From the NCBI GenBank assembly GCA_051294375.1, contig CM119270.1, positions 10,436,766 through 10,500,765 on the forward strand: 64,000 nt of DNA, given 5' to 3'. The notes below the pieces were generated by a model that was not told the DNA's origin, did no database searches, and was given only the letters and a program-made list of their open reading frames with translations. This DNA comes from Paraspadella gotoi. Taxonomy: Eukaryota > Animalia > Chaetognatha. Positions 3,933 to 51,600 of this stretch are shown here, in pieces (within the stretch, counting starts at the first letter, position 1; each line of letters starts with the position of its first letter). The position numbers were made by a program, and so were the translations under genes.

Positions 3933-6901
3933 TGTCAGGNNNNNNNNNNNNNNNNNNNNNNNNNTGTACTTGAAAACGGGTTAATGATTCTCCAGTTAAA
4001 CTGAAAATTCGACGGAGATAAAAACAGACGACGACGAGGACGAAAACAACGACGACGACGACGGCGTAAAAAAGATGCGAATTTGTGTTTATGTCAGACT
4101 TTAAAATGTCTGTGGTCATATGGCAAAGCTGTTTAAACTGTTTAAACGTCAGTCTTTACATTTAGGAAGAAAATAATTTCCCTTTTTTATTTTTGTTGGA
4201 AATTCTTATAAATTCAATTCATAACGATATAATGGACGAATGGACACTTTAAATAATACTATTGTTAATAATGCTTTTTAATTCTCTTCGTAATTAATTT
4301 AAATTTAATCAAGTCTTAAGTTAGCAATCTCTTCTCTGACAACGTGACACAAGACAAGAGGCGTGACAGACTTCACCAATCGAATCCAGGTGAAGCTGAA
4401 TGCGACGCTCAGTGATCAGGCGACGAGAAAAATACGAAGTTAAATTAACTAAAATTTACTTCTTATAAATCATAACTACTTAAAGAACAAATAAACATGT
4501 CGGACGAGTTGAGTTGGTAACAAAACGACGCCGCTGGACGCCACGACGCCGAAAGTGGATAGACCGTAAACGAGACGTCTAACGAGTTCCGGTTTTGACG
4601 CTCGAATCGCGCCATTTATCAGATTCCGTCACTTTTTTTGAATTTAATTCGTAATTCCACTAAATCGAGACTGGGGGGAGAATTGAGCAGGACTTGAGAA
4701 ATCAAAAGAAGAAGGGAGAGGAGGAAGAGGAAGAGGAAAAAGAGACGCTTGGAATCGAACGACAAAATTCCCTCTGGCTCAGTTTGACCTTTGACTCTTC
4801 CCTCTCCCTCGCACTCCTCTTCTTCTTGCTTCTGCTTCATCTCCATCTCCCTCTCCCTCCTCTTTAAAAATCTATGTTTCCCTTCGCCTCGACTTTCATA
4901 ACCTACAACTGCCAAAGCTCAAGACGTTCTTAGCGTCACATTTTGACGGCAGCGGAGGGCGTCGTCGACGTCCGGTTACCCATTGACAGCACTGCAGTGG
5001 CACCGACCCGCCGATGCTCGCACCACGTCGCCACGCCTGCCAATCGCTATCCGACACAAAACCGTTAAATCTGACACCCACGCCCCGTCACAAAATTCCG
5101 CCACAGGACAGATGGCCCGAGCCGGCAACAGGAAGCACGAAATCAGACCGCAGCACACACAAGAACCACAACACCACCGACCCTCAGAGCATCCGCACGA
5201 GAGAGAGACGAGAGAGCACGAGAAGAGCCCAGGAGAGATGAAGAACAGCAGCCAGACCGAGATACGACCGTCGCAGTCACCATGAGCGAGAAAGTCTTTG
5301 GACCTCTATCCCAGACACCCTCCTGACGCCAGAAGCTCAACACCGTCCCGCGACCGTTGAACACGCCTGCGTATAAGGGGCCAGCGAGGCCGACTTACAA
5401 GAAAACCCGAACCATCAATCCATTATTATTACTTCCACAATCAAAGAAGTTCTCCCCGTCAGTCTGCCCTCCACTGCTCCGGCTCTGCTCTCTCTCCTCT
5501 CTCTCTCTCTCTCTACTCCTCTCTCTCCTCTCTCTACTCTCTCTCGTCTCCTCCTCTCTCTCTATCTCTCTCTCCTCTCTCATTTCCTATTTCGACGTCG
5601 CTGGCCTCTTTATCTTCGTAATAATATTTGAAAATTTACCCGCCCGACGATCCGATATGAACGCTTTTTATAAGCCGACGACGGCGACGACGTACGACGC
5701 ACGACGACTACCGACGACGACGGAAACGACGACGAAAAGGACCGACCGGCTGACGGACCCGGGGTTACTGTTTTGACCGGTCACCAGGAAGAGAGGGAGC
5801 CGAGAGAGAGCAGAATGAGACGAGGACCGAGAAGGAAGGACCGACTGGACGACGAGAGAGAGAGAGAGAGAGGAGAAAGGTGCGGGTCCGGGAGGGGAGG
5901 AGGGGAAGTGAAACAACGTCCTAAAAGATAAAACGCCGTAAACCTTTCGTGTAGGGCGATCCTGCTTTGAGGGCGCTCGGACGGGAAAAGAGGAGACCCC
6001 AACACATTTCATTCTTACTCCTTCGCTCATTTTTCTGTCCAATTCAAAAAAAATATTTTTGAGTGTTTCGCATTTTATAGTCGATTGCATTTCATACTGA
6101 TGTTAAATATTATTTTGGAAAAAAGACGTTAGAAACATGAGGTCGTATTTTGATTTCGTTGTTTTGTTGTCAAATTAAGTGGAGGGGGAAAAAGTCAATT
6201 GTGCGAATGTCGAAAAATTGTTTTCGAAGATTTATCGATTATGTTTTTTTCTTATTATTCTCAAAATAGCGAGGGATCAATAAAGAAGAAAGAGAGAAAA
6301 AAAGAGAGAAAACAGAGAGAGAGAGAGAGAGAGAGACACGAGAGAGAGAGAGAGAGAGAGAGTTTGGGCCATTTGTCTGGCTTCGCCCCGCAAAATGGCC
6401 ACCTCGTTTTGTTTCATCGTTCAATCGGAGCTACGGGCCTCGGGGGGCCAAACACAGTTTTCCTCTCTTCGACCCCTGCCTCTCTTGGTCCCTCTCTTTC
6501 TGTCTCCATCTCTATCCTCCCATTTTTTTTATTTATCTCTCAAAAACATCCCCTGCATTCTCCCTCCATTTAACCGTAATTCATCCTCTAAACATTTTCT
6601 TCTTTTTTTTCTTTCTTTTCTCTTTATTTCTCTAAATTTCTTTGTCCTTATTTCTACTTACATCTTTTTCAGTTTTTTTAATCTTTCATTTTTATTATTT
6701 GATATTTAGCATTTATTTAATTTTTCTTTCGTCTTTTAGTTGCTATTGTTGTTTTTAGTTAGCTTCTTGAATTTTTGTATTGTCAATATATTATTCTTGG
6801 TATTTCTTTAATTTTTTTTCTGGACTCGCGGTTTTCCATTGCCCAACCTTACTGCCCTGACCCTATAGAGACCCTTTCTCACATTCAGAGAGAGAAGAGG
6901 A

Positions 6902-6954
<53 letters not shown>

Positions 6955-7443
6955 TGGGAAAAAGGAGTCAGAACCTCTTAAAATAAATGGAAGTTTTGGT
7001 GCTTTTATTAACATGAACATGAACATGAGTAACGTCACACCAAATGTAACTAGTACATGTTCATTTGCTTTAAATTAAAATTTATCTAAATCATTAAACA
7101 ATTAAACTGAGGAAAGTGAAGTAGGTCGAGATCAATTGAAGTGAAGATCGGAGAATTGAAAGAGAGTGTGGACAACACCGATCGAAAATCCTCGGTGGTT
7201 TAGATACTTCGATCCCTGTGATTGACTGTGGTGCTCGGGAGAGGAGTGAAAGGGAGATGTGACTGGGGGTGAAAGGTGTTTGGTCGTTGGAGGGATAAAA
7301 GGATGAGCGGTTGAGTAGCGAAGATATACGACTGAGGGAGTTCAGGGAAGGCTGATCGGAAATAACGATTTTGTGAGAGAAAAAGGTGAATTCGATTGAT
7401 AAGTCAAATGGCAGTTTATAGAGAGACATCTAGGGCAACCTGG

Positions 7444-10102: not shown

Positions 10103-10466
10103 CCCCTCTTCGAAGGATAAAAAAAGGGCCTCGAATTTTTGAAATAAACAGAGAAGACGGATTGAAGCGATGACAGAGCTGAGGGGTTGAGGGCGGGGAG
10201 GGGAGGGCGGTAAGTGGGGAAATAGAGAGAAGAGAGAGACGGAGTAACGAGGATAACGAAGGGGAAGGGCATCAGAGGTCGAGGGGTTTCGAAGTTCAGG
10301 GAAACGTCATTGAAAAAAATAATGAAAAGGGCGAACAGTATCTTTGTGTTGAGTAAACGAGAGAGAAGAGATGCAAAAAAAAATTGTTCGAATAAAAAAC
10401 TCTAAGAAATCAGAGAAATATAAACATTGTCGGATCTGCCTACGATAATTTAGCGGTAAGCAGCGA

Positions 10467-10610
10467 ACCAAATGATAAGTCATGATGGTCTGTGATCATC
10501 ACATATTACAACAGATCGTAACATAAAACCAAAAATTTACCAAATGATAAGTCATGATGGTCTGTGATCATCACATATTACAACAGATCGTAACATAAAA
10601 CCAAAAATTT
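10467..10610. repeat. Exact 2 x 72-bp tandem duplication next to a gap
   Basis: accaaatgataagtc...accaaaaattt at 10467-10538 and 10539-10610; the N gap starts at 10627. Confidence 0.9.
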
Positions 10611-11506
10611 ATGTACAGTCCTGTGCNNNNNNNNNNNNNNNNNNNNNNNNNAAAAAAAAAAAAAAAAAAAAAATCCGCCACTTTATTTCAGACTTTAAAA
10701 ATCACCCTATATTAGGACTAAGCTCTGACGAACAAAGCCCGAGGTTTTTTAATATATTCTTATACCGGCCAAGGTAGAATGATGGCAATATTGTTAATAT
10801 TAAGTTTTAAAAAAAATCCGACTATAAATATAGAAAATATTAACCAAAATCTTCAGAAAATTCACCCCTTCTTTGGAAGATTTTCGCGATAGAAGATTTT
10901 TCCCGAATCTGACTCCCGGTTGAAAACTCTTAGAATTCCGATCGTTAGCTTCTCTTTTACTTTTACTTTAAATAAAAATTTCACCAAAATGGACTAATTC
11001 ACTTTACCATGATCGTATCATATCAAAATAAACTAAAAAAAATGTAAAGAAAAATTTTGAGAGCCCTTCAAACACTTTGCCAAAGGATTCAAAAATTGGA
11101 CCTCATTTGTTGAACAGGAGATGAGAGTTGGAAAATTTTTCCATCCAGAAGCAGTCTATTTGTTCTGGCTTGTTTGATATCAATATGTTGATGATTTGAC
11201 AAGAGAAAAAAAATGCGAGCCCTTCAGATGCAACAGGATCGGAATCAAGTGTTTTTACATCGATATTTTACCAGAATTTTTACCAGGAGCGTTTATATTG
11301 TTTGGTAGTCAGATTTGAACAAAAATCTCCATTGAAAAAGTCTTCCTCGATCTCTAAGAACGACGTAGACTCCTACCTATATACTTGAATTTAAAAAGAA
11401 AATTTAAAAGTGATTTAAAGTTTATTGAAAGATAATAAGTTTGGCATAAATTTTATCAAAACTGAGCCTTCCGTTTAGGAGCAATATTTTTTTAAAATAA
11501 AGTACT

Positions 11507-11717
11507 TTTTTTTCGTTGTGTTTGTTTATGAGAAGAAGTTTTAAAATTATTTACAAATTACAACAACGATTGTTTTTTATTTCACATTAAAGCATTGAAC
11601 ATTGAAACATTTAAACTATTAACGCTGATGAAGGCTCGCAAAACAAGAGCCGAAACATGTACGTTTTAATGTGAAATAAAAAACGATCGTTGTTGTAAAT
11701 AATTTTCAAACTTTTTC
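11507..11717 (+). mobile_element. Short Penelope-like (PLE pLTR-derived) insertion with inverted tail and 12-bp TSD
   Basis: Flanking direct repeat aaataaagtact (11495-11506 and 11718-11729); ~50-bp inverted arms 11536-11591 and 11665-11713; hammerhead core between the arms. Confidence 0.7.
11621..11665 (+). ncRNA. Type-I minimal hammerhead ribozyme
   Basis: Stem I aacg (11621-24); CTGATGA (11625-31); a; stem II ggctc/gagcc (11633-37/11647-51); GAAA (11652-55); palindromic stem III acatgt; GTA cleavage triplet (11659-61); stem I' cgtt (11662-65). Confidence 0.85.
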
Positions 11718-12091
11718 AAATAAAGTACTATACCCCAAAGCTGAATGTAAAAAAATCTGATAGATTTAAGACTAATATTTTTTGCAATACTTGAAACAGA
11801 TTTAAAATTTTTAAAAATTACACTGAGCATCCAGAAAGATAGCTGGATAACTTGATTGCCCCAGATCCCTAAATAATAATTTTAAAGTCATTAAAACATA
11901 CGATGAAAAACAGGTCTATGATTCTGAAGCTTTTATACGGATTTTAAATGGGAGTGAAAAGAAATGATCAAATACTGTAACTAAATTATCTGATATAGCG
12001 ACTTCAGATTTTTAATTACAAATAATTAATAATTAATTAATACAGCTTGGATTTACATTTAATATAAAAATAAAAAAGCATAATCAAATAG

Positions 12092-12385
12092 TGAAATAGA
12101 TAGTTTGTTTTTTCCATTTTAACTCATTTCCCCTTGGACGATTCCATCGAAACTTTATTTCCTTCTCAATCACACATTTTCCTACACACATACAAAATTT
12201 GAAGTCAATCACCCTATTCACTCATGACTAATTGGCGTTGAAATAGTGAATTTTTTTTTCCATTTTAACTCATTTGCACTCAGACGATTCCAGCGAAACT
12301 CAATTTCCGGCTCAATCACACACTTTCCTACCCACACAAAATTTCATTCCAATCCATCCATCAAATCACGAATAATTGGTGTTTT
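12092..12385. repeat. Two diverged ~147-bp tandem units (central repeats of the HINE)
   Basis: tgaaatag...ttccattttaactcattt...gacgattcca..gaaact...ctcaatcacaca..ttccta...aaaattt...taattgg starts at both 12092 and 12239. Confidence 0.85.
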
Positions 12386-12426
12386 TTGCTAAGGTGGGAC
12401 GGACGGACAGACACAGACAGACAGAA

Positions 12427-12458
<32 letters not shown>

Positions 12459-13021
12459 GGACGGACATCTTTTTTTTTGCATAATTTATCATAATTGAAA
12501 TGTTCTGACATGATATAAGTGAATGCCCGACAAGATTGGGGGGGCGGACCGACGGACCGACAAAAAGAAGTATAGAGCCGGAATCTGCTGTAAGCAGATC
12601 CGGCTAAAAACTTCAAGTAAATGTGTAGAGAAGTTTCCGTCTCTCTACGCCGCTCCAACGCTCGGCCAAATACCGCAACCGACAAGTCATCCACTGACTC
12701 TATACTGTTAATAAATCCCGACGAAAAATGTAGAAGAAATCGAAGAGAAATCAAAATGTAATGTAAAAGAAATCCATCAATAATTCAATCAATAAATCCA
12801 GTATAGCCGGTGAAAATGCCAGTGTAAATGCCGTAGGAAAATGGTTAAAATATTGAGGGAAAATCGTCCAAGCGAGCGGAATCTATCTACTAAACTCGCG
12901 ATCCAAAGTCTGACTGAGGTTGAGCGGGAGAGAAGAGGAGAGAGCGAGAGAAATATCTCTGTATCTCTCGGTCCACAAACTATCTGTGGCCACTGGTTCT
13001 ACTTCAAAATGTGACTTTAGT

Positions 13022-41344: not shown

Positions 41345-41497
41345 TTTTTTTAGTCGGATCTGCTTATCCCATATTCCGACTCTATAATTTACTTTGTCGG
41401 TCCATCGGTCCCACCCCAAAATCTTGTCGGTAAATTTTTTTTATCATATCAAAATATCAAATTATGATAAATTATGCAAAAAAAATGATATCCGTCC

Positions 41498-41531
<34 letters not shown>

Positions 41532-41705
41532 GTGTCTATCTGAAGGTCCGTCTCACCTTTTCATTAAATTCCAATTACTCGTGATTGGATGGATAGATTG
41601 GAATGACATTTTGTGTGTGGGTAGGAAAGTGTGTGATTGAGCTGGATATAAACTTTGATGGAATCGTGTGAGTGGAAATCAGTTTAAATGGAAAAAACAA
41701 AATTC
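41345..41705 (+). mobile_element. 5' part of a DINE-1-like HINE (same family as 10429-12610)
   Basis: T-run, then agtcggatctgc...attccgactctata hairpin, core (ctttgtcggtcc.tcggtcc...atcttgtcgg...aattatgataaattatgcaaaaaaaa), (GTCY)n at 41491-41530, then one 147-bp unit; collinear with the reverse complement of 12250-12610. Confidence 0.8.
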
Positions 41706-41712
41706 GGTTCCA

Positions 41713-42231
41713 TTGGGATTCCTCCTACACGGGATTCCTCCCAACAGGATTCCTCCCACGCGGAATTTCCTCCCACACGGGATTCTTCCCCAAGGGATTC
41801 CTCCCAATGGAATTGCTCCCACACGGGATTCCTCCCAAAGGAATTGCTCCTACTCGGGATTTATCCCAATGGAATTGCTCCCACATGGAATTCCTCCCAA
41901 AGGAATTCCTCCTACACGGGATTCTTCCCAATGGAATTGCTCCCACACGGGATTCCTCCCAATGGAATTGCTCCCACACGGGATTCCTCCCAAAGGAATT
42001 GCTCCCACGCGGGATTTCTCCCACACGGGGTTCCTCCCCACAGGATTCCTTCCCATAGAATTCCTCCCACGCGGGATTCCTCCCACGCGGGATTCCTCCC
42101 TCACGGGATTCCTCCCACGCGGGATTCCTCCCACACGGGATTCCTCCCACGCGGGATTCCTCCCACACTGAATTCCTCCCACACAGGATTCCTCCCACAC
42201 AGGATTCCTCCCATGCGGGATTCCTCCCACA
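41713..42231. repeat. ~15-16-bp minisatellite (gggattcctcccacac / ggaattgctcccacac), roughly 30 units
   Basis: Directly visible tandem units; the overlapping long ORFs are by-products. Confidence 0.95.
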
Positions 42232-42758
42232 CTCTTTCTCTCTCTCTCTTCTTTCCTACCTACCCCCTTCTTCATGCTTTCCCCCACTTCCTGCACGTTT
42301 CCAACCCTCACTCTGTGACATTATTTAATCAAGAGAGGTTAACCTTATTAATCGCGATCGGAGAAATGCGCAACGGATTCTGTGAGTCGCATTCTTGCGT
42401 CTCTATTTTTGATGAAGGGAGAAGAACGACAGACATAGTGAGAGAGANNNNNNNNNNNNNNNNNNNNNNNNNNNNNNNNNNNNNNNNNNNNNNNNNNNNN
42501 NNNNNNNNNNNNNNNNNNNNNNNNNNNNNNNNNNNNNNNNNNNNNNNNNNNNNNNNNNNNNNNNNNNNNNNNNNNNNNNNNNNNNNNNNNNNNNNNNNNN
42601 NNNNNNNNNNNNNNNAAAAATTAAGGTTTGGAATTAAGGTTTGTAATTAAATGTACTTCAGATATAGATAAAAGCTACCAACTGATTAAGACCTCATTTG
42701 AACACTTAATATTCAAGCAAGAGGGAGAGAGAGAGAAGAGAGAGAGAGAGAAGAGAGC

Positions 42759-47559: not shown

Positions 47560-48639
47560 NNNNNNNNNNNNNNNNNNNNNNNNNNNNNNNNNNNNNNNNN
47601 NNNNNNNNNNNNNNNNNNNNNNNNNNNNNNNNNNNNNNNNNNNNNNNNNNNNNNNNNNNNNNNNNNNNNNNNNNNNNNNNNNNNNNNNNNNNNNNNNNNN
47701 NNNNNNNNNNNNNNNNNNNNNNNNNNNNNNNNNNNNNNNNNNNNNNNNNNNNNNNNNNNNNNNNNNNNNNNNNNNNNNNNNNNNNNNNNNNNNNNNNNNN
47801 NNNNNNNNNNNNNNNNNNNNNNNNNNNNGGGGGGGGAGCAGGAGTATCCTCTCTTTTATTGACTCACCAAAACAAACACTTTCGAGGGTATTCCCGTTGT
47901 CGCTAAAGTGAGTCCACGAAAATATAAAACTGTGATTGGAATAAGCTTTAAAAAAATCGAGTCAGTTAAGAGTCGAGAAAATATTTTTAAACCTACGAAA
48001 GAGTAAAGCGGGAATTCTTATTCTTACACTAACACGAATTAAGCGATAATGTTTGTTTTCGGCGAAAACTCTGTGCGTTTTAACATAAAACATTTTATAG
48101 CCGAATTTTTTTTTTAAGATTGCACTTGATCAAAAAAAAAGTTGCGTGTCGCTCGAAAGGACTGATGTCGTCTTCCCGATGAATGACTGAAGTGGTAGGG
48201 TGTTTCACCCAAATTTGAAAAGTTTTCAGATCTTAATTTACATCTAGGAAAATATGTTGGGAGGTAAAAAAATAAGATTGTACTACTTTTTGTCAAAATT
48301 GGTGCAACACCCTTAGTGCTACCCTCGCCTAAAGGATAAAAAAGCACACCTTGTGCACATTTTCGTCAATTGACTAAATCCTAATGAGCCAATCCACGTC
48401 CAAAGGATCTTATTAGTTGCCCCACCTTCTAAGGATGATGCAGTAAAAATTTCAGCTCTCTATAAGGACGAAGGCTTACACTTAAGCAGTTACTGTATGG
48501 TGGAGTATAGAGAACAATAAACTTCTTATCTATACCCTCATCAACTTATTTCTTCTCATTTCATTTTCTCTTACTAACAATCATCAGCAACATAATTTTA
48601 TTATTACATTTTAGTAAATATTTAGTTTTTCTAAATTTT

Positions 48640-51600
48640 TTCACTGTCGTGTACATTGCCTAAGTATTGATCCCTGTGTCTCTCTCTCTGCAGGTCTCTC
48701 CTCTCTTTTGTCTTAAACCCCCATCTTCACCAATTTCAAAATCATTTACTCTCTCTTTTCGCACTACTTCAACTGTCCTCCACATCTGACCACTATCCTT
48801 AGCTCAACTTCTCTTGTGGAAACTCTCTCTCTCTCTCTTTCTCATCTCTCTCTTCAAACTAATGTTTAAAAAAGTTCTTTTGGTCTATTGAATTCACTTG
48901 CTCGATGAACGACTGTACATTCAATAAAAATAGAATATTGCTCATTACTACGAATTTTTCGTGCTCATCTCTAAGCAGTAAATTATTCATAATCGATGTT
49001 CTGACATGGGACATTAGTGTGTGCCCGACAATATTGAGGGGGCGACGATGCGACGACAAAAGGATTATAGATCGGGATCTGCTGATAAGGCCAGATCCGA
49101 TAAAAACTGCATCATTTTCAGTTGTAGGTAAAAAGAAAAATTGCCGATGTTTGTAGTCCATTGCCAAGCTTCCGGTCACATTGCTGCTTGGATCAAAGGC
49201 AAAATCTGAGTGTCGACACCTGTTAATCGTATTAAGCACTTAAAATTATACTAGAAACTGAACAGGATTGTAAAATGTTCGACCTGCATAGTTAGGAAAA
49301 ACAAGTTGAGCAAACCAATGTCGGATTCTTGCCTACATAATAAGCCGGAATCTGCAATCAAAGCAATGCTAAATCCAATAAAAATTTTTAAAAATTTTTT
49401 TTAACTGGCCAGAAAAGAACCGATAGGTTTCCGCCATCACTGCACGGTTTCTCATCATTTCTCCTCATCCTCCTCCCCCCCTCCCGGAATCCAGGCCGAG
49501 TCCATGGGTTTAGGTGATATCACGCTCTTTCCTCTCTTTCTCTCCACCGTCCCTCTCCCGTTCAGTCTTGTTACCATTTTTTACCGCCAATAGCCGCTTA
49601 CATTATATTTTCCTTTCAACCATTTTCCCGTCTTTACTTACCTACGATTCAGCTCAACTTACCCGACCTTAGTAGAGTGGCGCCCATGCGTCGCTCGAAC
49701 CCCTTAACCACGAAAAACCCCGCTTGAGTCCTGCTCGTTACCCTCTAAACAAAAACAGAAAAACTTGGCCATAGAGACCCAAAAAAAAACAATAAACAAT
49801 CCCTACCCGTCTTTTTCTCTCACCACTTTTCTTCGGCTCCTCCGAATGTTTGCCGATCCTTGACTAGTTTGTCTGCCGACTGTCTACGGAAGGAGAGTAC
49901 ACTGTACATGACTCGGCAGATGAGGTGGAGTCCTTAGTAAGTTCTTAGTTTTTTTTAACGTTTGGAAATGTATTTTGTTTTGTTCCTCTTTTTGGTTTAC
50001 TAGGAAGAAAAGCTTTTTCGTTGTAGAATGTTTATATCAATGTACCGTTAATTTCACAGGTGTTCCCTTTATTTTGTGTTTTTTGAAACGACAGGGAAAT
50101 TTATAGGAAAGGTGAACAAACAGTAGGTCCAAAGAAGAGATGAAGGTCTGAAAAGGCATTGTCGATGAAGACGAAAAAAAATTTGGTGATTCTTCCAAAA
50201 TTAGTCCAAGGGCGGAAGAAAAAAGTAACCAGGGCGCAGAAAAAAAAATTAGTCCAAGGATGACGGCGAAAAAAAAAAATTCGCCAGGACGGAGAAAAGT
50301 AGTGGAGAAAAGAACCTGGGTCAGGGGAATTGTTTAATTGTTTTTTTGGGTCTCTATGCAAGGTTATTTGTCCTTGTTCTTGTTTTAGATGGGTAACGCA
50401 GCACAGACTCAAAGCGGGGTTGTTCGTGCGGTTAAGGGGTTCGAGGCGGACGGCATGGCGCCACTCAACTAAGGCGGGGTTAAAGTTCTGACCTGAAATC
50501 TAGGTAAGTAAAGACGGGGGAAAATGTGGGAAAAGGAAATATAATGTAAGCGGCTAATTGGCGGTTAAAAAAAAATGGTAACAGAGACTGAACGGGGAGC
50601 AGGGACGGTGAGAAGAAAGAGGGAAAACGTGAACTGAAAAACCTAACCCTGGACTCGAGCCTGGATCTCCGGGAGGAGGGGAGGAGGAGGTGATGAGGAG
50701 AAAATGATGAGGGAAACGGGTTGCATGATGGCGAAACCTATCGGTTCTTTCCTGGCAAGTTACAAAAAATAAATTTAAGACAAATATTGTGATTTACATT
50801 CTGATTACGCAGAATACGCTTAATTATCTGTAGGCAGATCCGACATTGTTTGCTCAAACTTGTTTTTCTAACTATGCAGGTCGAAAACATTTCTCTTCAC
50901 AATCCTTTCAGTTCTAGTATAATTTTAAGGCTTAATTACGACTCCAACAAGTGTCCGACAGATCAGTTTTGCTTTGAATCCACCACTCCGCACAATTGAC
51001 CACGGAAGTTGGGCATGGACTACAACATCGAATTTTTCTGTTTACCACAACTGAAAAATGATTGCCAGGTTTTTTTTAGTCGGATCTGACTGTATCAGCA
51101 GGATCCCGGACTCTATAACTCACTCTTGTCGGCCCCCTCCATCGGGGTCCGCCCCCCCCTCAAAATATCTTGTCGGGCTACACACTCTATGTCATGTCCA
51201 GAACCATCGAATTATGATATATTGCTTAGGAGAATGAAAACGAAAAATTTCGTATAATAAGCAATTTCTTATTCGTTTATTAATGATTACACGCTTCTTC
51301 CATAGCAAGTGGAATATCAATTAGACCAGCGAAAAATTTTCTTATTAAACATTAGTTTGATGCAGAGAGAGAGAAAGGAAAAACGAGGCAGATCGAGAGA
51401 GAAGTTTTCCAACAAAAGAATTGAGCCGATCAAGGCATAGCTGTGCGAGATGTGCAGGACCAGGTGAAAGTTAAGGGAAAGAATAGGAGAGGATAACATG
51501 ATTTTTTGAAATTGGTGTTGCGTGCAAAAGAAAAAGAGCGAGTCGAGACGGAGAGAGACGGAGACGGATAACAGGGGGGGACAATATCACAACAAAAACA

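What the first reader, a model, noticed from the sequence alone, without database searches (positions are those of the whole stretch)
11495..11729. Intact hammerhead ribozyme in a 210-bp Penelope-like micro-element nested in a Helentron
Seen: all catalytic-core residues (CUGAUGA, GAAA, GUA triplet), a 5-bp stem II, a palindromic ACAUGU stem III and a 4-bp stem I. These sit between ~50-bp inverted arms and are bounded by a 12-bp direct repeat (aaataaagtact). Knowledge: Penelope-like elements carry minimal type-I hammerheads with palindromic stem III that are thought to cleave as dimers, and their insertions often have an inverted tail. Inference: a tiny non-autonomous ribozyme retroelement (PLE pLTR or retrozyme-like). 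The right arm begins exactly at the end of stem I', so arm pairing would enclose the ribozyme in a hairpin and might modulate it. Being inside a HINE, it could also be spread by rolling-circle transposition.
Basis: partly seen in the sequence, partly recalled or inferred. Interest (0 to 1): 0.8.

Follow-up and report, generated by a model that had tools for sequence, protein, structure and literature searches.

The report
Two-armed Penelope insertion stump with hammerhead
This 211-base insert carries a real hammerhead-ribozyme motif, but it is most likely an ordinary one-off stump of a Penelope-type jumping gene (a forward piece, a mirror-image piece, a one-sided tail and a duplicated target) that landed inside another repeat, and this copy is predicted to be inactive.

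Summary
The motif is real: a minimal type I hammerhead at 11621-11665 with palindromic stem III and the extra nucleotide typical of Penelope-like element (PLE) ribozymes; 0 of 300 shuffles gave a strict match. Rfam does not detect it. The target duplication is real and empty-site homologues exist. The layout is the published PLE insertion signature: inverted 5'-truncated copy, one-sided 25-31-nt tail, 12(-18)-bp duplication. 53 of 84 look-alike loci from metagenomes are two-armed too, 43 of them with a one-sided tail. Of about 100 contigs laid per run, only one covers the arm-ribozyme junction (X1, X2), so this is not a multicopy micro-element and was not spread by the HINE-like host. No partner ribozyme lies in the window and the arms are predicted to disrupt stem I: likely inert. 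No coding parent was found; cleavage is untested. One open lead: the inverted arm stops at about the cut site, followed by three imperfect copies of its last 8 bases. The scan noted this architecture before in many other genomes. Known kind, low interest.

The parts
11495..11506 (+). Left target-site duplication (12 bp exact; 11489-11506 if 18 bp with one mismatch)
   Evidence: empty-site homologues
11507..11531 (-). One-sided AC-rich 'tail' ending in an A run (25 nt; 31 nt, 11507-11537, if the duplication is 18 bp)
   Evidence: a second contig covers about 11511-11545 in X1 and X2 and an X9 contig joins 11538 to 11665 on opposite strands
11532..11591 (-). Inverted, 5'-truncated copy of the sequence 3' of the ribozyme (inner end between 11591 and about 11594)
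   Evidence: 50 of 53 identical plus a 7-nt indel
11594..11616 (+). Single-copy junction filler: three imperfect tandem copies of the arm's last 8 bases
   Evidence: 19 of 24 columns; 0 of 1000 shuffles; chosen after the fact; single contig
11621..11665 (+). Minimal type I hammerhead: stem I 4 bp, core, extra A 11632, stem II 5 bp, palindromic stem III 11655-11660, predicted cut after 11661
11666..11717 (+). Forward 3' part of the pLTR-like unit (right arm); 11712-11717 fit both element and target
   Evidence: four sibling contigs align up to 11717 and stop
11718..11729 (+). Right target-site duplication
10384..12605 (-). Host HINE-like repeat: subTIRs 10431-10443 and 12590-12602 (12 of 13), hairpin 12576-12605, (GACA)n 12398-12467, 146-bp subrepeats; 25-N gap at 10627-10651
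   Evidence: features from PMC4067079 passages
10713..11375 (.). Separate high-copy 663-bp element with 7-bp target duplication, also nested in the host repeat (not part of the finding)

Best explanation
The insert holds a minimal hammerhead motif between inverted arms and a duplicated target, and is most likely a one-off, doubly 5'-truncated insertion made by Penelope-type (RT plus GIY-YIG) machinery into an older HINE-like repeat. Shown: the motif, the arms, the one-sided tail, the duplication, empty-site homologues, many related ribozyme copies in the species and a single-copy junction. Inferred from published PLE biochemistry: the endonuclease nicked both strands of the AT-rich target about 12-18 bp apart; reverse transcription started at two sites 25-31 nt apart on pLTR RNA, once from each cut end; the copy started at the outer site (with tail) became the short inverted arm, the copy started at the inner site ran just past the ribozyme; the two truncated cDNAs were joined head to head with a short filler. 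In the parent, the ribozyme would cut as a dimer through its palindromic stem III. This copy has no partner in cis and its stem I is predicted to be out-competed, so it is likely inert. Whether the parent codes for its own RT or is a non-coding PLE derivative is open.
For: Ribozyme type: extra nucleotide between 9 and 10.1, G10.1-C11.1, short stem I, small palindromic helix III are the traits of PLE hammerheads (PMC4209133). Layout: inverted 5'-truncated copy, 30-40-bp tail on one end, 8-10-bp duplications are the described PLE signature (PMC8557442 passages; PMC3846280 passages); two RT start sites bracket the tail, both strands are cut, AT-rich targets (PMC11167929). Empty sites: X1 contigs join 11506 to 11736 and 11477 to 11712. 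Family: summed depth 40,000-50,000 over the ribozyme against 198 over the junction in X1, 5,700-7,300 against 11 in X2; listed differences within the ribozyme are loop II indels, two 2-nt gaps at the stem II/loop edge (11637-11638) and one G-C to G-U change, none in the core. Tail belongs to the family (extra contigs, the X9 joint, an X1 loose end that continues like the left arm). Look-alikes: 53 of 84 loci two-armed, 43 of 53 with the tail on one arm only, 14 of 53 with an exact repeat of 8 bp or more; stems I and II covary (94% of cells paired, 7 of 11 pairs with two-sided changes). Inertness: no second ribozyme in 64 kb; stem I pairing probability 0.005-0.03 in the whole insert against 0.28-0.50 locally.
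Against: No PLE coding sequence was found: no Pfam hit in 44 of 47 candidate window frames scanned or in three frames of 10652-11493; among 102 of 541 candidate frames near the look-alike ribozymes only one RVT_1 hit (L010, about 1.7 kb away, opposite strand, not shown to be a PLE) and no GIY-YIG. No whole genome was held, so siblings were seen only as short contigs. The look-alike loci come from other organisms and were picked with a pattern taken from this motif. In those loci the two arms usually differ at the pair closing stem I (only 5 of 60 alike, recounted by hand), which does not fit both arms being copied from one RNA there and fits fixed palindromic units. Contig depth is not a copy number. 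The 25-nt tail is shorter than the published 30-40 bp unless the duplication is 18 bp.
Confidence: 0.85

Rival explanations
1. A fixed 211-bp non-autonomous micro-element (ribozyme between terminal arms) that is copied as a unit.
For: Compact, target duplication, arms. Look-alike loci in other organisms form 300-340-bp palindromes with a shared centre and arms that differ systematically, as fixed units would.
Against: Junction 11580-11606 is covered by 1 of 99 contigs laid in X1 and 1 of 97 in X2; siblings align from about 11619 and have unlike sequence upstream (loose-end agreement 0.5-0.6). The arms are lopsided in the PLE manner.
Confidence: 0.07
2. A passenger amplified by rolling-circle transposition of the HINE-like host, with the arms acting as a switch on the ribozyme.
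For: It lies between the subTIRs of a HINE-like repeat. The arms are predicted to lower stem I pairing.
Against: Host flanks are covered at 5,000-70,000 summed depth in X1, the insert's left part at 280-620; host contigs skip the insert. The same host also carries a second, unrelated insertion, so it is probably an old copy. Filler alone lowers stem I pairing to 0.03-0.08.
Confidence: 0.04
3. A chance hammerhead-like string inside a MITE-type inverted repeat.
For: No Rfam hit; 15 of 300 shuffles give a relaxed match; AT-rich DNA.
Against: 0 of 300 strict matches; the ribozyme is the deepest-covered part of the insert in four runs, with the core unchanged; covariation in the motif class.
Confidence: 0.02

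Closest known systems
Minimal type I hammerheads in pLTRs of metazoan Penelope-like elements (Cervera and de la Pena 2014, PMC4209133; parts 1-2 of 4 read)
   Same: Extra nucleotide between 9 and 10.1, G10.1-C11.1, 4-bp stem I, small palindromic helix III, mostly single dispersed copies ascribed to truncated PLEs.
   Different: Stem II is 5 bp (7-8 bp in S. mansoni, 6 bp in D. virilis); no coding parent found here; activity untested.
EN+ PLE insertion architecture: inverted 5'-truncated copy, one-sided tail, target duplication (PMC8557442 and PMC3846280 passages; PMC11167929 parts 1-2 of 4)
   Same: Head-to-head arms, tail on one arm only, AC-rich tail, AT-rich target, duplication.
   Different: Extremely short (no ORF left); tail 25-31 nt; duplication 12-18 bp against 8-10 bp in Adineta; tandem filler at the junction.
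Animal non-LTR retrozymes (PMC7229834 passages; bioRxiv 10.64898/2026.07.22.740005 parts 1-2 of 5)
   Same: Non-coding, type I hammerhead, low GC, duplication longer than 4 bp; proposed to be PLE derivatives; dispersed monomers occur.
   Different: No tandem units here, minimal rather than canonical ribozyme, inverted arm and tail; no circular RNA evidence.
HINE / DINE-1 non-autonomous Helentrons (PMC4067079 passages) - the host repeat
   Same: 13-bp subTIRs, 3 nt from one end and 47 nt from the other, inverted repeat nested in the 5' subTIR, microsatellite, central repeats, T-rich flanks.
   Different: 3' palindrome weak (-1.1 kcal/mol); assembly gap inside; no autonomous partner tested.

Membership tests
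PLE minimal hammerhead | Full catalytic core with NUH triplet and stems I and II | tested here: met
PLE minimal hammerhead | Unpaired nucleotide between 9 and 10.1; G10.1-C11.1 pair | tested here: met
   A11632; G11633-C11651; criteria from PMC4209133
PLE minimal hammerhead | Short palindromic helix III/loop 3 | tested here: met
   11655-11660; self-duplex -6.6 kcal/mol
PLE minimal hammerhead | Family with compensatory changes | tested here: met
   motif class: 7 of 11 pairs with two-sided changes, 85 sequences; in the host species only indirect
PLE minimal hammerhead | Self-cleavage as dimer | not testable with these tools
   no assay; the unconstrained cofold did not form the palindrome duplex
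Rfam hammerhead families | Score at gathering threshold | tested here: not met
EN+ Penelope-like element insertion | Inverted 5'-truncated copy at the 5' end | tested here: met
EN+ Penelope-like element insertion | 30-40-bp tail on one end only | tested here: met
   25 nt, or 31 nt with the 18-bp duplication; family-derived
EN+ Penelope-like element insertion | Target-site duplication with an empty site | tested here: met
   joints 11506-11736 and 11477-11712 in X1; probably paralogous sites, one side only 27 nt
EN+ Penelope-like element insertion | Parent with RT and GIY-YIG ORF | tested here: inconclusive
   none in the window or beside look-alikes; no genome to search
Non-LTR retrozyme | Tandem units each with a type I hammerhead | tested here: not met
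   one ribozyme in the window; siblings elsewhere in the genome not tested
Non-LTR retrozyme | Linear and circular monomer RNA | not testable with these tools
   no listed holder on record as RNA
Multicopy non-autonomous unit | Same internal junction at many loci | tested here: not met
   1 of 99 and 1 of 97 contigs
HINE (host) | subTIRs, nested 5' inverted repeat, microsatellite, T-rich flanks | tested here: met
HINE (host) | 3' palindrome; continuity of both ends; no target duplication | tested here: inconclusive
   weak hairpin, N gap at 10627-10651, no empty site examined

The most novel reading that the evidence does not exclude
The junction is a DNA record of ribozyme cleavage in the germ line followed by telomerase-like reiteration: the inverted cDNA ran off the 5' end of a hammerhead-cut RNA (arm ends at 11593-11594, opposite 11662-11663, allowing two transitions) and the PLE reverse transcriptase then re-copied the first 8 bases of that cut RNA three more times (11594-11616) before joining the forward copy.
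Probability: 0.15. Interest if true: 0.6.

Novelty: new member of a known kind. Interest (0 to 1): 0.22.

Why it matters
As it stands it is one more PLE stump, useful for annotating this genome: it marks a family of PLE-type hammerheads that Rfam misses, and warns that such arms-plus-ribozyme inserts are insertion by-products, not new micro-elements. It would matter more if the junction records a cut RNA end and repeated copying, because cleavage by these weak ribozymes in vivo is unproven (no reads ended at the cut site and uncut RNA was the main substrate in PMC11167929) and PLE RTs are the closest kin of telomerase. One copy cannot show that; a census of junctions could.

Tried and rejected
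No whole genome held, so no BLAST census. Rfam: no hammerhead hit. A YVDD string in a frame of 10653-11492 suggested a decayed RT; Pfam found nothing in the three + frames at E up to 1; rejected. Viral contigs: 0 matches to the pattern. I first read as showing that inverted arms of look-alike loci end at the cut site; that was an artefact of starting the alignment there. Unbounded, most arms run through the ribozyme and 3 of 57 end within -6..+5, one of them (L081) an extension failure: no pile-up; rejected for that set. Rows dropped: L019 and L064 (bacterial-looking chance hits) were left out; loci with under 250 bases upstream or 150 downstream and duplicate contexts were left out; (other than 41) L019 and L064 are still in the denominators. 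The covariance model contains the window's motif, so its 46-bit self match is no evidence; it served only to look for a second ribozyme. No RNA holder listed; X9 is only guessed to be RNA, so expression is untested. X5, X6 and X9 contigs do not cover the junction: a hole proves nothing, so polymorphism is not claimed. Whether the 11506-11736 contig is an allele or a paralogue could not be told. 6 of 10 listed runs were laid. Lunse et al. (dimer cleavage) is not held; known only through PMC6765202 passages. Seven paper searches listed no paper whose title or abstract start reports arms ending at the cut site or reiterated junctions; the library lacks most subscription papers and no supplements were read. 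A dimer-constrained fold crashed and was not obtained.

Full report
What is there. The window is repeat-rich animal-type DNA with no recognisable gene in the frames scanned. At 11621-11665 the + strand has a complete type I hammerhead: 4-bp stem I, CUGAUGA, an unpaired A at 11632, 5-bp stem II, GAAA, the palindrome ACAUGU and a GUA triplet with the cut predicted after 11661. It is the only descriptor match in 64 kb; 15, 2 and 0 of 300 shuffles gave a relaxed, a palindromic and a strict match. Rfam does not call it. Contigs from two samples of one study reproduce it without differences.

Anatomy. Between two exact 12-bp repeats (17 of 18 if extended) lie, from left to right: 25 bases found only on the left arm, an inverted copy of 11665-11717 (50 of 53 identical, one 7-nt indel), about 25 bases of filler, the ribozyme, and the forward 3' segment to 11717. 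Two X1 contigs cross the site without the insert (11506 to 11736; 11477 to 11712), so the repeat is a true target duplication in a repeated host; these are probably paralogous sites and one has only 27 bases on its short side. The second shows the host carrying the six bases 11712-11717 before a single repeat, while the left arm and a sibling carry a version with one difference, so these six bases fit both target and element; the duplication is 12 or 18 bp and the tail 25 or 31 nt.

Family in the species. Laid at 80% likeness on 11490-11750, 99, 97, 31 and 33 contigs of four runs pile on the ribozyme (summed depth 40,000-50,000 in X1, against 198 for the one contig over the junction; 5,700-7,300 against 11 in X2). 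The tool warns that this is no copy number; I infer only a family of the order of hundreds. Listed differences in the ribozyme are indels in or at the edge of loop II and one G-C to G-U change in stem II; none in the core. Siblings align from about 11619 to 11683-11717 and have unlike sequence upstream. An extra contig covers the tail in X1 and X2, and an X9 contig joins the tail segment to the ribozyme end on opposite strands, so the tail is element sequence. The arm-filler-ribozyme junction occurs once. That argues against a 210-bp unit that multiplies, and against spread by the host: host flanks are 25-350 times deeper than the junction.

Look-alikes elsewhere. A pattern fixing the core, the closing pairs and the palindrome found 109 loci (117 matches) in the third of metagenome contigs scanned. 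In 85 distinct sequences (84 plus the window; L019 and L064 left out) 94% of cells pair, 7 of 11 pairs change on both sides, and no shuffle reached the score, with the caveat that relatedness inflates this; slid structures score far lower. Of 84 loci with enough flank, 53 have head-to-head arms with a common outer end 45-85 nt past the cut site; in 43 of 53 a tail motif sits on one arm only (29 forward, 14 inverted), and 14 of 53 have an exact flanking repeat of 8 bp or more. L048 and L034 are near twins of the window's layout. No PLE coding frame was found beside them in the 102 of 541 frames scanned.

Comparison with print. The extra nucleotide, G10.1-C11.1 and a small palindromic helix III define PLE hammerheads, most of which are dispersed single copies; single motifs did not cleave, dimers weakly (PMC4209133, parts 1-2 of 4; review PMC6765202 passages). 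Inverted 5'-truncated copies, a 30-40-bp tail on one end and short duplications are the standard PLE layout (PMC8557442 passages; PMC3846280 passages). A purified PLE protein cuts both strands of AT-rich DNA and starts reverse transcription at two sites that bracket the tail; ribozyme cleavage needed the protein and was not required for insertion (PMC11167929, parts 1-2 of 4). Non-LTR retrozymes are tandem and proposed to derive from PLE pLTRs (PMC7229834 passages; bioRxiv 10.64898/2026.07.22.740005 parts 1-2 of 5). No supplements were read.

How it likely arose and works. Inferred: both cut target ends primed cDNA on pLTR RNA, from the outer and the inner start site; both copies stopped early and were joined head to head. 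This two-ended priming reading is also what several earlier notes of the scan propose for other genomes; I did not test it here, and the look-alike set gives a result against it for those families (arms alike at the stem I closing pair in only 5 of 60). Stem III cannot close as a monomer (2-nt loop), the palindrome can form a 6-bp duplex, and no partner lies in the window. Stem I pairing probability falls from 0.28-0.50 (ribozyme alone) to 0.03-0.08 with the filler and 0.005-0.03 with the left arm; the active secondary structure costs 2.6, 4.3 and 4.9 kcal/mol. So this copy is likely inert; these are predictions.

Host. 13-bp subTIRs (12 of 13) at 10431-10443 and 12590-12602, a hairpin at 12576-12605, (GACA)n and 146-bp subrepeats match HINE features; related ends occur elsewhere in the window. 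A 25-N gap inside and a weak 3' palindrome leave this short of proof.

The one odd feature. The inverted arm ends between +3 and about 0 of the cut site, and 11594-11616 matches three tandem copies of the arm's last 8 bases (19 of 24 columns; 0 of 1000 shuffles, 0 of 142 host 23-mers; top score among 900 element-derived units, with unrelated units only one point lower). Against reiteration on a cut RNA: unit and bounds were chosen after the fact; two units share a change that the template lacks, as DNA slippage would give; depth rises from 11607 and an X9 contig aligns from 11610, so part may be natural pLTR sequence; look-alike arms show no pile-up at the cut site. I give it 15%.

Verdict. 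Observation confirmed; interpretation partly supported; new member of a known kind; interest 0.22. The scan had noted this architecture on other DNA many times (449 findings hold the words); none in or near this window, and the seven notes returned for this genome concern twister ribozymes.

Noticed in passing
window 10713-11375: A separate 663-bp element with 5-bp inverted ends and a 7-bp target duplication (10706-10712, 11376-11382) is nested in the same host repeat. It is very abundant (summed depth 200,000-1,200,000 in X1 over 11000-11377; contigs of X9 and X10 end at 11375), also present in organism B, and has no Pfam match in its + frames. Unclassified.
   Followed up: partly
L001, L009, L025, L070, L102 and others (e.g. 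L025 about 290-730): Families of 300-340-bp palindromic, non-coding elements with a hammerhead in each arm, a shared hairpin centre and a one-sided tail. With the forward arm fixed at G-C for the pair closing stem I, the inverted arm has C-G in 22, C-C in 14, G-G in 11, G-C in 5 and other in 8 of 60 (recounted by hand because the script misregistered the G rows). This fits fixed units with two different arms and patchy arm-to-arm conversion, or arms from different RNAs; not both arms from one RNA.
   Followed up: partly
L081:301-1405; L002, L011, L028: Two-plus-two tandem hammerhead units in head-to-head palindrome (L081) and tandem pairs 74-118 bases apart: natural dimer candidates.
   Followed up: no
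window 10467-10611: Perfect 72-bp tandem duplication just before the 25-N gap; may be an assembly overlap.
   Followed up: no
window 41347-41705, 48981-49111, 49270-49345, 50820-50900, 51080-51110: Further HINE-like ends sharing the subTIR and hairpin; 48728-49851 and 50275-51517 are an inverted pair at 76% identity, 48187-48515 has two more copies at 93-95%.
   Followed up: partly
window 11660-11665 (sibling contigs): Many sibling ribozymes diverge right after 11660 with a C next (a GUC triplet) and other stem I sequences, so the species holds several hammerhead families (loose ends).
   Followed up: no
window 41715-42232: Degenerate 16/31-bp minisatellite abutting a truncated HINE-like end.
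   Followed up: no
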